Positions 36,655 through 38,832 of a DNA stretch of 64,000 bases are shown here, in pieces. Where the stretch lies: assembly GCA_045577985.1 (NCBI GenBank), contig JAZNJJ010000026.1:19403-83402 (forward strand), in the 5' to 3' direction. The stretch comes from Alphaproteobacteria bacterium. GTDB lineage: Bacteria > Pseudomonadota > Alphaproteobacteria > RF32 > CAG-239. The notes beneath the pieces were generated by a model. The model saw only the letters and a list, made by a program, of their open reading frames with translations. It was not told the DNA's origin and made no database searches. Within the stretch, counting starts at the first letter, position 1; each line of letters begins with the position of its first letter. The translations under genes and the position numbers were made by a program.

Positions 36655-36686
36655 AAAGCCTTTGCTATGCAAGGGCTTTTATTTTT
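36655..36686. terminator. bidirectional terminator between rplI and the GT2 gene
   Basis: GCCTTTGCtatGCAAGGGC (one G-T pair) flanked by A7 and a T-run. Overlaps the GT2 stop. Confidence 0.65.
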
Positions 36687-37470
36687 TACGTTTGATATAA
36701 ATTTTGAAACCTAAAATAGAGATAATTTTAAACTTTTTATCTGTAGAATTTTTTATAGAAAAGATTTTCTGAAATATTTTACTTCTATGATTATGCTTGT
36801 ATTTTGTTATTTCTGCATCTGTATAATATTTTTGATGAACCCTATCAATTTCCGGTCTATTTCTACTACTGTCAGATGATATTCCGCCAGCTCTAAAAGA
36901 AGCGATAATATATGGAACATATTCAAAAGTTCCGCCATTAACAGCCAGATTTGTAAATTTTTCAAAATCAGCAACTATACGGAATGATTCATCATACAAA
37001 CCTAGCTTATTGAAAACATCTTTTTTAATGAATGTTGCTTGATGGCATAATGTATCATTTATGAAAAAATATTTATTATGAACTTTTCTGCTATGAAAAA
37101 CTTTTTTCCATTTTATATAATCAAATTCTATATCGCCATAAATAACATCAGCTTTATGAGATTGAGTAAAAATTTCTTCTAATAATGTTTCTTTATAAAA
37201 AGAATCTCCCGCATTCATAAAAATAAGATATTCTCCTTTCGCCTGACTGATACCTTTATTCATAGCATTATAAATACCATCATCAGGTTCCGAAACAAAG
37301 TATGTCATTTTATTTTTATATTGAGAAAAAATATCTAATATCTCTGATTTTGAACCTCCATCGATAACAATCCATTCAAAATCATCAAAGCTTTGAGATG
37401 CAATACTCTTACAAGTATCTTCAACACCTTCGGCATTATAGCAAATTGTTATAACTGAGACTTTAACCAT
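36679..37470 (-). CDS. family 2 glycosyltransferase
   Basis: VSVITICYNAE....CKSIASQSFDDFEWIVIDGGS, followed by a DxD-like region (EPDDGIYNAMNKG). Very AT-rich. Confidence 0.75.
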   Translation of the reverse strand: MVKVSVITICYNAEGVEDTCKSIASQSFDDFEWIVIDGGSKSEILDIFSQYKNKMTYFVSEPDDGIYNAMNKGISQAKGEYLIFMNAGDSFYKETLLEEIFTQSHKADVIYGDIEFDYIKWKKVFHSRKVHNKYFFINDTLCHQATFIKKDVFNKLGLYDESFRIVADFEKFTNLAVNGGTFEYVPYIIASFRAGGISSDSSRNRPEIDRVHQKYYTDAEITKYKHNHRSKIFQKIFSIKNSTDKKFKIISILGFKIYIKRKK

Positions 37471-37496
37471 GATATAAAGACCTAAAAATAAGGCGG

Positions 37497-37662
37497 TCGG
37501 GGAGTTCGCAAATCATAATTCAGAAAAATGATTTCTTGTGCCTTTAAAAGTAGTGTAGAACCGTTTTATACTTTTTGGACATACGCACAAGACTCCCCGA
37601 TCATTAGGGGGATATATTCTTTTAAAGGCGAATATACAAGCCCTCTGAATTATTAACCTGCG
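37497..37662. other. GC-richer structured element: ~156-nt imperfect inverted repeat (rod) plus competing 9-bp GGGG/CCCC pairings. Candidate sRNA, cis-leader or MITE.
   Basis: Arms 37507-37550 and 37619-37662 pair as 4+10+5+11 bp. TCGGGGAGT (37497-37505) is perfectly complementary to ACTCCCCGA (37592-37600), which can alternatively pair with GGGGGA at 37607-37612. Confidence 0.5.
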
Positions 37663-37778
37663 AAAGTTAATGTGGTAATAATAAAGAATCATTACCTCTT
37701 TTTTGTATATAAAATTTTAAAATATAAATCAATAATATTTTTTAGTACCTGAGCAAAAGTTTATATTTATCAAAATTA

Positions 37779-38204
37779 TTATTTAAACTGCTCAGCAAAC
37801 TTATATTTGTCTATTCCATTTATCTTTAAAATCTGTGGATTTTGTAATATATTTGGTAACTCGATAGAAACAAAAGTGCTGCGCTTATCTGCATTATACA
37901 CAAATGCTGTTATATTTCCAGAAGCAGACCATATAAAACGCCGTGAAGCAATTGCCCAAACTTTCATTATTTCTGGATCTGGTATGCCATTACAAGAATC
38001 CAAGCCTAAGGCTATGAGCTTTTTACCACATTCAGTATTATCTAAAGTATAAGTTCCTGCATTTTCTTTTATATACTGTAAAGCTTGACGCTTATTTTCG
38101 TCTGTTTCTAAAAAACTGACACTATATAAAACTACACTATCAGGAGGTGTTGTTACATCTGCATTTTGAGCTATATTATAGGCTTTTTCTAAATTATTTT
38201 GCAT
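37779..38204 (-). CDS. hypothetical protein
   Basis: 141-aa ORF, no signal peptide, no motif recognised. Confidence 0.4.
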   Translation of the reverse strand: MQNNLEKAYNIAQNADVTTPPDSVVLYSVSFLETDENKRQALQYIKENAGTYTLDNTECGKKLIALGLDSCNGIPDPEIMKVWAIASRRFIWSASGNITAFVYNADKRSTFVSIELPNILQNPQILKINGIDKYKFAEQFK

Positions 38205-38280
38205 TTAAATATCCTTATATTCACAAAAAGACTTCGGATTTACCATAGGTTTCCGGATAAAATTATATATTTGTAAATTA

Positions 38281-38832
38281 TTATTCAGCTGTTGCTACAG
38301 GCATCTCTGTTGTTTCTTCAGCAGTTTTACGTTTTGCACCACGACGAGAAACTTTAGCCTCTTTTTCTGTCGGTAGTGTTTCTGCGTTGTTTTCAGCTAC
38401 TTCAACTACTGTAAAACTACGTCTTTTTCTCGTTGTTTTCTCAGCAACTTTTTTTGTTGGATGCTCTTCTGATGTTGTCTCTTCTGCTGTTATTTCTGTT
38501 ACATTATTTTCTATTGTCTTATCTGCAACTTCACTATCTTCGCTTTTTTCTGTTGCTTCAATATTATTTTCATTTTGAGCTTGATTTTCTCTACTTTGAT
38601 TCTTGCGTTCGTTAATCTCTGTTACAATTTTACGATAATGTTCTGCATATTGACGAAATACTTCCATTTCAACATAGTTACCATTGCTATGAGCCTCTTT
38701 AGCTAACTCATTATACTTTTTTATTAAATCTAATGCCGTTCCACTAAATTTACCTGCAGAACTAACACTATCAAATTTGTAATTTAACGAATATACATTA
38801 TTACCGCGAAATTTATTATTAACTTTTCTCAT
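38281..38832 (-). CDS. DUF4167-like protein (alphaproteobacterial conserved, adjacent to prmC)
   Basis: N-terminal G.A..L..KY..LA.EA...G......E.F.Q.AEHY.(R/K)I pattern, followed by a low-complexity E/T/K tail. Confidence 0.55.
   Translation of the reverse strand: MRKVNNKFRGNNVYSLNYKFDSVSSAGKFSGTALDLIKKYNELAKEAHSNGNYVEMEVFRQYAEHYRKIVTEINERKNQSRENQAQNENNIEATEKSEDSEVADKTIENNVTEITAEETTSEEHPTKKVAEKTTRKRRSFTVVEVAENNAETLPTEKEAKVSRRGAKRKTAEETTEMPVATAE

What the first reader, a model, noticed from the sequence alone, without database searches (positions are those of the whole stretch)
37497..37662. GC-richer rod-like structured element with mutually exclusive GGGG/CCCC pairings in a 308-nt intergenic gap
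A stretch that is visibly more GC-rich than its surroundings sits between a very AT-rich GT2 gene and a hypothetical gene.

The arms 37507-37550 and 37619-37662 pair as follows:
- CGCA/TGCG (4 bp);
- ATAATTCAGA/TCTGAATTAT (10 bp);
- CTTGT/ACAAG (5 bp);
- GCCTTTAAAAG/CTTTTAAAGGC (11 bp).

Asymmetric internal loops separate these helices, giving a rod of about 156 nt. In addition, TCGGGGAGT (37497-37505) is perfectly complementary to ACTCCCCGA (37592-37600) inside the rod. The same C-run can instead pair locally with GGGGGA at 37607-37612. This allows a pseudoknot or alternative conformers.

Candidate identities:
- a 6S-like or other sRNA;
- a 5' cis-regulatory leader of the GT2 gene on the minus strand;
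- a MITE with terminal inverted repeats of about 44 nt.
Basis: seen in the sequence. Interest (0 to 1): 0.6.

Follow-up and report, generated by a model that had tools for sequence, protein, structure and literature searches.

The report
Structured leader RNA before glycosyltransferase gene
The flagged stretch is one copy of a large RNA family absent from Rfam: a folded leader read from the minus strand in front of a sugar-transferase gene, which can fold in competing ways and probably acts as an on/off switch for surface and accessory genes in many bacteria, with an unknown trigger.

Summary
The element is not 6S RNA and not a MITE. It is a ~230-nt leader RNA on the minus strand (about 37696 to 37471), directly upstream of the GT2 gene.

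It belongs to a multi-copy family with no Rfam 15 match. This scan has already noted the family on at least eight other genomes.
- A covariance model built here finds it in 134 of 149 genomes of the family (1 to 85 copies each).
- It also finds it in 14 other alphaproteobacterial families.
- A pattern scan finds it in cultured Rhizobium, Shinella, Phyllobacterium, Celeribacter and Granulicella, and in Luteolibacter MAGs and phage contigs.

The two inner helices are not conserved and clash with a strongly covarying stem (P2).

In typical members the 3' C-box overlaps a terminator arm and matches the ribosome-binding site. A second class with a different box has a correspondingly different site. 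The likely function is a conformational switch on termination and translation.

The window copy lacks a terminator and a matched site, so its output is uncertain. All three leaders in this genome precede glycosyltransferase genes. No transcript data could be obtained.

The parts
37674..37696 (-). P0: 5'-proximal hairpin GGUAAU-(11 nt)-AUUACC. It corresponds to the hairpin at the transcript start in other copies, for example GAAC-UUCG-GUUC.
   Evidence: Position and hairpin are conserved with different sequences in relatives. In G044 it lies about 7 nt after a TTGACT-17-TATAGT promoter. Coordinates.
37653..37670 (-). P1a: local hairpin UUAAC/GUUAA. Its loop carries segment b (UUCGCA, 37659-37664).
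   Evidence: The stem changes from UUAAC/GUUAA here to GGAGC/GCUCU or GGGG/CCCC in other subfamilies. It is 91% paired in orthologs.
37644..37653 (-). Segment d (AUAAUUCAGA). It pairs with d' in the loop of P3.
   Evidence: 98.9-100% paired in orthologs. In 27 G044 paralogs 8 of 9 pairs change on both sides.
37614..37635 (-). H: variable hairpin AUAUUC-(10 nt)-GAAUAU. In this species only, its loop GCCUUUAAAA(G) is complementary to 37541-37551.
   Evidence: A hairpin at this place covaries in G044 (3 of 5 pairs). The 11-bp loop complementarity is absent from orthologs (68.7% paired).
37607..37612 (-). e: upstream C-run (UCCCCC). It can sequester the G-box.
   Evidence: 130 of 194 copies have at least 8 contiguous pairs between the 42 nt upstream and the G-box, against 42 of 194 after shuffling. 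98% paired in G044.
37592..37600 (-). e': G-box UCGGGGAGU, the 5' strand of P1 of the three-way junction. It pairs alternatively with e.
   Evidence: P1 is 99-100% paired. Its 4-bp extension is paired in 82-86% of 195 copies.
37535..37591 (-). P2 (CUUGUGC/GCACAAG) with the conserved internal loop GUAUGUCCA / AAAG and the inner hairpin P2b.
   Evidence: P2 has 7 of 8 pairs changed on both sides in G044, 4 of 7 in orthologs and 8 of 11 in the 98-sequence alignment. The loop letters are invariant across phyla.
37511..37533 (-). P3 hairpin AAUCAU/AUGAUU. Its loop carries d' (UCUGAAUUAU, 37515-37524).
   Evidence: Invariant within the genus. It covaries in the broad alignment (4 of 5 pairs, 99% paired) and in the genome's second copy (AGUAU/AUACU).
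37505..37510 (-). b' (UGCGAA), the junction strand between P3 and P1. It pairs with b.
   Evidence: 5 bp are kept in all 9 orthologs. 5 of 7 pairs change on both sides in G044.
37497..37505 (-). a': 3' C-box ACUCCCCGA, the 3' strand of P1 and the hinge of the switch.
   Evidence: In G044 its variable position pairs with the 5' G-run as AU:12, GC:12, GU:3 and with the G-box as GU:13, GC:12, AU:2. The class of box matches the class of ribosome-binding site.
37471..37496 (-). Reduced expression platform CCGCCUUAUUUUUAGGUCUUUAUAUC. It keeps the family's 5' arm (GACCGCC) but has no 3' arm, no proper terminator and no GGGGAG-type ribosome-binding site.
   Evidence: Sequence. No minus-strand terminator was called. 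Typical copies have a hairpin plus U-run starting 0-2 nt after the box (74 of 195 by a strict test).
36679..37470 (-). Downstream gene: family 2 glycosyltransferase, 263 aa.
   Evidence: Pfam PF00535, E = 2e-19.
37704..37732 (-). Weak candidate promoter TTGATT-17-TATACA just upstream of P0.
   Evidence: Read by eye by analogy with G044. The consensus scan did not call it. Read-through from the upstream ORF 37779-38204 is equally possible.

Best explanation
The element is a ~230-nt structured 5' leader RNA transcribed from the minus strand in front of the GT2 glycosyltransferase gene. It belongs to a large leader family that has no Rfam 15 match.

Anatomy, 5' to 3':
- a terminal hairpin (P0);
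- a small hairpin (P1a) whose loop b pairs with the junction strand b';
- a strand d that pairs with the loop d' of a later hairpin;
- a variable hairpin (H);
- a C-run (e);
- a three-way junction (P1, P2, P3) closed by a G-box (GGGGAG) and a 3' C-box (CUCCCC).

The C-box is the hinge of the switch.
- Shown by sequence: it can pair with the G-box (P1), and in most family members also with a 5' G-run. The G-box can instead be taken by the upstream C-run.
- Shown by sequence: in typical members the bases just after the C-box belong both to the extended P1 and to the 5' arm of an intrinsic terminator, and the C-box is complementary to the ribosome-binding site.
- Inferred: the fold with P1 lets transcription and translation proceed, and the fold with the G-box sequestered stops them.
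- Unknown: the trigger. It could be a protein, a global small-molecule signal, or folding kinetics.

The window copy keeps the whole sensor part. It has lost the terminator's 3' arm and the matched ribosome-binding site. Its effect on the GT2 gene is therefore weaker, works in another way (for example mRNA stability or a 4-bp GACC/GGUC hairpin over the AGG site), or is lost.
For: Family membership and strand:
- Model R1 scores the window copy at 89.4 bits on the minus strand.
- The model finds 1 to 85 copies per genome in 40 of 50 genomes of the genus and 134 of 149 genomes of the family.
- 83 of 88 copies examined have an ORF starting within 220 nt downstream on the same strand.
- G044 copies carry TTGACT-17-TATAGT about 7 nt before P0.
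- Conserved G-U pairs occur only in this orientation.

Structure:
- In 27 paralogs 97.6-98% of cells are paired, against about 40% when partners are slid. 28-30 pairs change on both sides.
- In 98 sequences from several phyla 96.7% are paired, including covarying P3.

Switch:
- The C-run to G-box alternative is conserved.
- The P1 extension is paired in 82-86% of copies. A terminator hairpin starts 0-2 nt after the box in 74 of 195 copies.
- Class A (box CUCCCC): 138 of 191 have a GGAG-type site downstream and 2 of 191 have GGAUGU.
- Class B (box ACAUCCG): 21 of 29 have GGAUGU. The genome background is 10 of 1190.

All three leaders of this genome precede glycosyltransferase genes: GT2, GT2 and GT29.
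Against: - There are no transcript data.
- The window copy has no terminator, no matched ribosome-binding site and no promoter called by the consensus scan.
- Its computed minimum-energy fold (-63 kcal/mol) is the long rod, which includes two lineage-specific helices.
- Within the genus, P1, P3 and the C-run hairpin are supported by conservation only.
- The broad alignment was fitted to the model and was selected with a pattern that fixes GGGGAG and CUCCCC.
- Many copies are paralogs and not independent.
- Downstream genes across taxa are very mixed: pilins, lipoproteins, XRE regulators, a GmrSD-like nuclease, PAS-GGDEF proteins and glycosyltransferases. No single signal suggests itself.
Confidence: 0.6

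Rival explanations
1. It is a c4-like RNA precursor. The three-way junction would be cut out of the leader, for example by RNase P at the 5' edge of P1 as in phage P1/P7 C4 RNA. It would then act as a small antisense RNA. The upstream b and d segments would play the part of the a1/b1 decoys.
For: - The junction domain gives weak, sub-threshold matches to sRNA-Xcc1 (up to 35.6 bits, cut-off 53) and C4 (up to 29.5 bits, cut-off 45), partly at the same loci.
- C4 has three stems, is processed by RNase P at a GGW site at the 5' end of P1, and uses variable loops for pairing (PMC5320573).
- Here P1 starts with GG in 96 of 116 copies outside the gut family, and RCCA follows the 10-bp P1 in 47 of 116.
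- The motif occurs in 20 phage or prophage contigs.
Against: - No second copy of b or d lies downstream near the ribosome-binding site. Own and foreign segments match equally poorly.
- RCCA is absent from all 65 gut-family copies examined. Where present it is mostly part of the 5' arm of the next hairpin.
- The window copy starts P1 with GAUC, not GG.
- The Rfam cut-offs are not reached.
Confidence: 0.15
2. It is a true riboswitch. The three-way junction with its invariant GUAUGUYCA/AAAG internal loop would bind a small molecule, most plausibly a global second messenger, and ligand binding would fix P1.
For: - Unpaired letters stay invariant across three phyla while the stems covary.
- There is a terminator and ribosome-binding-site platform.
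- Many downstream genes concern the cell surface: pilins, adhesin-like proteins, lipoproteins and glycosyltransferases. Some encode PAS-GGDEF cyclases.
Against: - Class B leaders keep the architecture but have a different P2 interior (AAUAAGG...), so the putative pocket is not universal.
- The downstream genes are functionally mixed and often lie on mobile elements.
- Up to 85 copies per cell would titrate a scarce ligand.
- No ligand can be tested with these tools.
Confidence: 0.15
3. This particular copy is a relic. It would be a leader that has lost its expression platform and now serves only as a structured 5' UTR, or has no function.
For: - No terminator 3' arm and no GGGGAG-type ribosome-binding site is present.
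- The same subtype in sister species also lacks a terminator.
- It sits in other contexts there, between a GtrB-like GT2 gene and a 410-aa secreted protein.
Against: - The subtype is about 80% identical across at least 10 species.
- Pairing is preserved and compensatory changes occur in P2. This argues for continued selection on the RNA.
Confidence: 0.2
4. It is a MITE or other selfish repeat with ~44-nt terminal inverted repeats.
For: - There are many copies per genome in some species.
- The arms look like inverted repeats.
- The promoter-leader unit appears in front of unrelated genes.
Against: - The arm sequences differ in every copy and stay complementary by compensatory change.
- Orientation is tied to the downstream gene.
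- G-U pairs are kept.
- BLAST finds one copy in this genome.
Confidence: 0.02
5. It is 6S RNA or a 6S-like RNA.
For: The computed fold is rod-like and about 160-180 nt long.
Against: - RF00013 matches elsewhere in the genome at 69.7 bits.
- It does not match the element at E up to 10.
Confidence: 0.01

Closest known systems
sRNA-Xcc1 (Rfam RF02221), an integron-, transposon- and plasmid-borne sRNA of Xanthomonas that is multi-copy in Xylella genomic islands
   Same: - Both have a three-way junction of about 87 nt closed by a G-rich/C-rich stem, followed by a U-rich junction strand before the closing strand.
- It is the only Rfam family that gives repeated weak matches on the leaders.
- Both are multi-copy and associated with mobile elements (PMC12189769).
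   Different: - Scores reach at most 35.6 bits against a cut-off of 53. The window copy is not matched at all.
- The leaders carry an extra ~110-nt 5' half that pairs with the junction, a competing C-run and an expression platform.
- sRNA-Xcc1 is described as a trans-acting sRNA.
C4 antisense RNA of phages P1/P7 (Rfam RF01695) and the C4-like Group 1 sRNAs of Acinetobacter baumannii
   Same: - Both have three stems P1-P3 and variable single-stranded segments used for base pairing.
- In both, upstream complementary segments lie in the same transcript (a1/b1 in P1).
- Both have a G-G start of P1 and occur in many copies per genome (PMC5320573).
   Different: - Scores reach at most 29.5 bits against a cut-off of 45.
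- There are no downstream a2/b2-type target sites.
- The pairing partner lies in cis, upstream.
- A terminator or ribosome-binding-site platform follows directly.
Terminator/antiterminator and SD-sequestering expression platforms of riboswitches and attenuators, for example c-di-GMP riboswitches before pilin genes in Clostridioides difficile
   Same: - Both are promoter-proximal structured leaders.
- Both have mutually exclusive helices that overlap a terminator arm or the ribosome-binding site.
- Both are frequently placed before pilin and surface genes.
   Different: - No known aptamer matches.
- No ligand is known.
- There are two long-range pairings between the 5' half and the junction.
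- The regulon is heterogeneous.

Membership tests
6S RNA (RF00013) | Match to the 6S covariance model at or above the gathering score | tested here: not met
   There is no RF00013 match on 37000-38300 at E up to 10. The genome's 6S is at C24:73656-73812, 69.7 bits.
sRNA-Xcc1 (RF02221) | Match at or above the gathering score of 53 bits | tested here: not met
   The best score over five genomes is 35.6 bits. The window copy is not listed. The only hit in G000 is the class B leader on C21, 27.2 bits.
sRNA-Xcc1 (RF02221) | Three-way junction closed by a G/C-rich stem | tested here: met
   P1/P2/P3 are supported by covariation. Alignment to the RF02221 consensus is shown.
C4 antisense RNA (RF01695) | Match at or above the gathering score of 45 bits | tested here: not met
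   The best score is 29.5 bits. There is none in G000.
C4 antisense RNA (RF01695) | Target sites (a2/b2) complementary to the variable loops, overlapping the downstream ribosome-binding site | tested here: not met
   In the 445 nt downstream, own b/d segments match no better than those of other copies in 27 G044 leaders.
C4 antisense RNA (RF01695) | Processing by RNase P at the 5' edge of P1 (GGW start) | not testable with these tools
   P1 starts with GG in 96 of 116 and 49 of 65 copies, but with GAUC in the window copy. No RNA data are available.
MITE | Terminal inverted repeats of shared sequence among copies | tested here: not met
   Arm sequences differ between copies and covary: b-b' in 5 of 7 pairs and d-d' in 8 of 9.
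MITE | Insertion independent of gene orientation | tested here: not met
   83 of 88 copies have an ORF starting within 220 nt downstream on the same strand.
Riboswitch | Conserved structured sensor domain with covarying stems and invariant unpaired letters | tested here: met
   The GUAUGUYCA/AAAG loop is invariant.
Riboswitch | Expression platform that competes with the sensor | tested here: inconclusive
   It is met in typical members. The window copy has no terminator and no matched ribosome-binding site.
Riboswitch | Specific ligand | not testable with these tools
   No binding assay is possible. The downstream genes are functionally mixed.
Uncatalogued G-box/C-box leader family (this scan's earlier notes) | Full architecture: P0, P1a with loop b, d, H, C-run, three-way junction, C-box | tested here: met
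   Window copy scores 89.4 bits with R1. All segments are located and paired in orthologs.
Uncatalogued G-box/C-box leader family (this scan's earlier notes) | Intrinsic terminator and box-matched ribosome-binding site after the C-box | tested here: not met
   The window tail is CCGCCUUAUUUUUAGGUCUUUAUAUC. Sister copies of the same subtype lack them too.

The most novel reading that the evidence does not exclude
The leader is a portable, self-addressed RNA gate that bacteria of several phyla and their phages, plasmids and islands place in front of accessory and surface genes. Each copy carries its own pair of address helices (b-b', d-d') that dock the 5' half onto a c4-like three-way junction. 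A shared cellular factor then decides whether the C-box releases the terminator and the ribosome-binding site. That factor could be RNase P acting at the GG start of P1, or a global signal molecule bound at the invariant GUAUGUYCA/AAAG loop. This would be a new, widespread class of cis-regulatory RNA, evolutionarily linked to phage immunity RNAs.
Probability: 0.2. Interest if true: 0.85.

Novelty: new variant of a known kind. Interest (0 to 1): 0.7.

Why it matters
- A ~200-nt RNA with about 50 conserved base pairs is absent from Rfam 15. It occurs in up to 85 copies per 1.6-Mb genome, in most genomes of a gut and rumen alphaproteobacterial family, and also in cultured Rhizobium, Shinella, Phyllobacterium, Celeribacter and Granulicella, in Luteolibacter MAGs and in phage contigs.
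- It sits in front of pilins, adhesin-like proteins, lipoproteins, glycosyltransferases and mobile-element genes. It may therefore be a general control point for how these bacteria present their surface and express acquired genes.
- Finding it in cultured, tractable strains makes the switch hypothesis directly testable.
- For this window it explains the GC-rich island, assigns the strand, and shows that all three leaders of this genome control glycan-building enzymes.

Tried and rejected
- 6S RNA: rejected.
- Any Rfam 15 family: six searches gave no match to the leaders at E up to 1, apart from sub-threshold sRNA-Xcc1. The searches covered the window, 44 loci with gut-family or class-wide copies, and 8 loci from cultured or other-phylum bacteria.
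- tRNA or tmRNA: none at the site.
- Plus-strand RNA: rejected because of terminator, ribosome-binding-site and gene orientation in relatives, and because of G-U pairs.
- Protein-coding reading of the overlapping ORFs 37513-37692(-) and 37528-37656(+): no Pfam match for the 59-aa ORF. Orthologs differ by 1- and 2-base gaps and by compensatory changes.
- MITE: rejected.
- C4-type downstream targets: not found.
- Free RCCA tail as a universal feature: absent from the gut family.
- A leader peptide: I saw no conserved start codon in the G044 alignment. This was by eye and not tested further.
- Synteny: only the G020 copy shares the upstream prmC-DUF4167-ORF context.
- The Hartmann 1995 paper on C4 processing is not held in the library.

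Full report
**Observation.** The sequence is as described.
- TCGGGGAGT lies at 37497-37505, ACTCCCCGA at 37592-37600 and GGGGGA at 37607-37612.
- The four arm helices are present.
- The 308-nt gap lies between the GT2 ORF 36679-37470(-) and the ORF 37779-38204(-).
- GC reaches 0.38-0.40 inside the element, against 0.16-0.26 beside it and 0.316 for the genome.
- Both strands fold better than all 200 shuffles: z = -3.56 and -3.86.

**What it is not.**
- Rfam 15 gives nothing on the region at E up to 10, and nothing but a tRNA in the whole window.
- The genome's 6S RNA lies elsewhere, at C24:73656-73812 with 69.7 bits.
- ARAGORN finds no tRNA or tmRNA at the site.
- BLAST finds one copy in the genome.

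**Relatives and strand.** BLAST against relatives found orthologs of about 80% identity. It also found short hits to the 5' end of my query in several places per genome. Reading those places showed a shared architecture on the strand that corresponds to the window's minus strand: a structured RNA, then a hairpin with a U-run, then a ribosome-binding site and a start codon.

I built a covariance model of the 3' domain (alignment A2, model R1). Its results:
- The window copy scores 89.4 bits. A second copy in the genome, at C2:4686-4774, scores 68.9 bits.
- It finds copies in 40 of 50 genomes of the genus.
- G044 has 85 copies and G020 has 34.
- It hits 134 of 149 genomes and 18 of 20 genera of the family.
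- It hits genomes of 14 other families among about 150 sampled across the class.

Record titles place the organism among uncultured gut and rumen Alphaproteobacteria.

**Spread beyond the gut family.** A pattern scan of species-representative genomes found at least 120 further loci, in:
- cultured Rhizobium, Shinella, Phyllobacterium, Celeribacter, Xanthobacter and Aquimixticola;
- Micavibrio and Rickettsiales MAGs and sphingomonads;
- Acidobacteria (Granulicella rosea DSM 18704);
- Verrucomicrobia (Luteolibacter MAGs).

The full architecture is kept in these. Twenty phage or prophage contigs carry it too. None of these loci matches an Rfam family at E up to 1.

**Structure.**
- In 27 G044 paralogs (alignment A3) 97.6-98% of cells pair, against about 40% when partners are slid. 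28-30 pairs change on both sides.
They covary in 5 of 7 and 8 of 9 pairs.
- The variable hairpin H, stem P2 and inner stem P2b covary as well.
- In 98 sequences from several phyla, P3 also covaries (4 of 5 pairs) and 96.7% of cells pair. That alignment was fitted to the model and was selected with a pattern that fixes the two boxes.
Helices 3 and 4 are paired in only 62.5% and 68.7% of cells and clash with P2 (98.4% paired, 4 of 7 pairs changed on both sides).
- Many conserved pairs are G-U in the minus-strand reading, which fixes the strand.

**The switch.** Several observations point to competing folds around the boxes.
- The G-box (GGGGAG) can pair with an upstream C-run. At least 8 contiguous pairs occur in 130 of 194 copies, against 42 of 194 after shuffling.
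- The G-box can instead pair with the 3' C-box to close the three-way junction.
- In G044 the variable position of the C-box pairs with a 5' G-run as AU:12, GC:12, GU:3 with no mismatch. The same position tolerates the G-box through G-U. A third partner is therefore likely.
- P1 extends by 4 pairs into the sequence after the box, paired in 82-86% of 195 copies. A strict search finds a terminator hairpin with U-run starting 0-2 nt after the box in 74 of 195 copies. P1 and the terminator therefore exclude each other by 2-4 bases.
- A search with RF02221 uncovered a second class of leaders with the same layout but the box pair CGGAUGU/ACAUCCG.
- The ribosome-binding region follows the class. GGAUGU occurs in 21 of 29 class B copies and 2 of 191 class A copies. 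A GGAG-type site occurs in 138 of 191 class A copies and 5 of 29 class B copies. GGAUGU precedes 10 of 1190 long ORFs in this genome.
The count is mine. Most class B copies come from one genome and are paralogs.

I infer that the fold with P1 frees the terminator arm and the ribosome-binding site, and that sequestering the G-box closes both. The trigger is unknown.

**This copy.**
- All sensor parts are present (coordinates).
- The tail reads CCGCCUUAUUUUUAGGUCUUUAUAUC. It keeps the usual 5' arm but has no 3' arm, no U-run after a hairpin and no GGGGAG site.
- Sister copies of the same subtype also lack a terminator.
- Except in G020, sister copies sit in another context, after a GtrB-like GT2 gene and before a 410-aa secreted protein.
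- The computed minimum-energy fold of the window RNA is the long rod (-63 kcal/mol). Without pseudoknots, the junction fold scores -35.4 and the conserved rod -41.7.
- The subtype is nevertheless about 80% identical across at least 10 species with compensatory changes. I think the RNA is still under selection, but I cannot say how it acts on the GT2 gene.

**The genome's three leaders.** The window copy precedes a GT2 gene. The C2 copy (junction only) precedes another GT2 gene. A class B copy at C21:10267-10350 precedes a GT29-like sialyltransferase gene.

**Comparison with known RNAs.**
- The only Rfam families that give repeated weak matches are sRNA-Xcc1 (at most 35.6 bits, cut-off 53) and C4 (at most 29.5 bits, cut-off 45).
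- C4 RNA has three stems, is cut from a longer transcript by RNase P at a GGW site at the start of P1, and pairs through variable loops (PMC5320573).
- sRNA-Xcc1 homologues are multi-copy in Xylella islands next to C4 RNAs (PMC12189769).
- The leaders share the junction, the GG start of P1 and upstream complementary segments.
- They lack downstream target sites. The RCCA that follows P1 in 47 of 116 copies outside the gut family is absent from all 65 gut-family copies.
- I therefore file the leaders as a new variant related to c4/Xcc1-type RNAs and used in cis, not as a member of either family.

**Downstream genes.** They are mixed. They include pilin-like proteins, Cys-rich secreted proteins, thermonuclease-like proteins and lipoproteins. 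They also include XRE regulators, RovC-like and DUF5818 proteins, a GmrSD-like nuclease, PAS-GGDEF cyclases and glycosyltransferases. This argues against a metabolite-specific riboswitch but leaves a global signal or a protein factor open.

**Earlier notes of the scan.** Eight notes on other genomes describe the same family as a two-state terminator leader, with sRNA-Xcc1, c4 or c-di-GMP platforms as the closest known. I reached the same reading before reading them (my statement). I tested the box/ribosome-binding-site idea and the c4 link myself. Those note summaries do not mention two things reported here:
- the spread to cultured bacteria of other orders and phyla and to phage contigs;
- the finding that in this genome the leaders precede only glycosyltransferase genes.

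**Limits.**
- No transcript data were available.
- Paralogs are not independent.
- The promoter of the window copy is not established.
- The mechanism is inferred from sequence alone.

Noticed in passing
G000:C2:4686-4774 (minus strand; locus L019:1501-1589): A second class A copy lies in the same genome (68.9 bits). It has only the three-way junction, with changed boxes (GAGAUG/CAUCCC) and a compensated P3 (AGUAU/AUACU). It sits directly after a terminator and in front of another GT2 glycosyltransferase gene.
   Followed up: partly
G000:C21:10267-10350 (minus strand; locus L331): A class B leader (box pair CGGAUGU/ACAUCCG) with its own terminator and a GGAUGU ribosome-binding site sits in front of a 334-aa GT29-like sialyltransferase gene. 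G020 holds 26 or more such class B leaders that model R1 does not detect.
   Followed up: partly
window 37619-37629 and 37541-37551: A perfect 11-bp complementarity links the loop of hairpin H and the 3' side of P2b plus the conserved AAAG loop. It exists only in this species, and it makes the long rod the computed minimum-energy fold. I cannot say whether it locks the RNA in one state or is chance.
   Followed up: partly
window 37666-37670 and 37463-37467: The 5' strand UUAAC of P1a is also complementary to GUUAA at codons 2-3 of the GT2 gene (AUG GUU AAA). The minimum-energy fold pairs them.
   Followed up: no
L277:2516-2600, L250:4003-4080, L262:6297-6380, L363:10297-10370 and others: In Rhizobium, Shinella, Granulicella and Xanthobacter and in several phage contigs, a second conserved hairpin follows the leader before the gene. 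It reads UUGCGG-GGGCGYAC-CCGCAA. It is shared across phyla and I have no explanation for it.
   Followed up: no
L363, L364, L375 (viral contigs) and L239 (Acidobacteria MAG): Some leaders precede PAS-GGDEF diguanylate cyclase genes (Pfam PF00990, E = 8e-49). Others precede a GmrSD-like restriction nuclease (L221) or XRE regulators (L217, L234).
   Followed up: partly
In sister species such as G044 the pilin-like genes carry the leader described here. The two control regions may replace each other.
   Followed up: no
window 37779-38204 (minus strand): The 141-aa ORF upstream of the leader has no Pfam match. It is conserved next to DUF4167 and prmC in G020 (59% identity).
   Followed up: no
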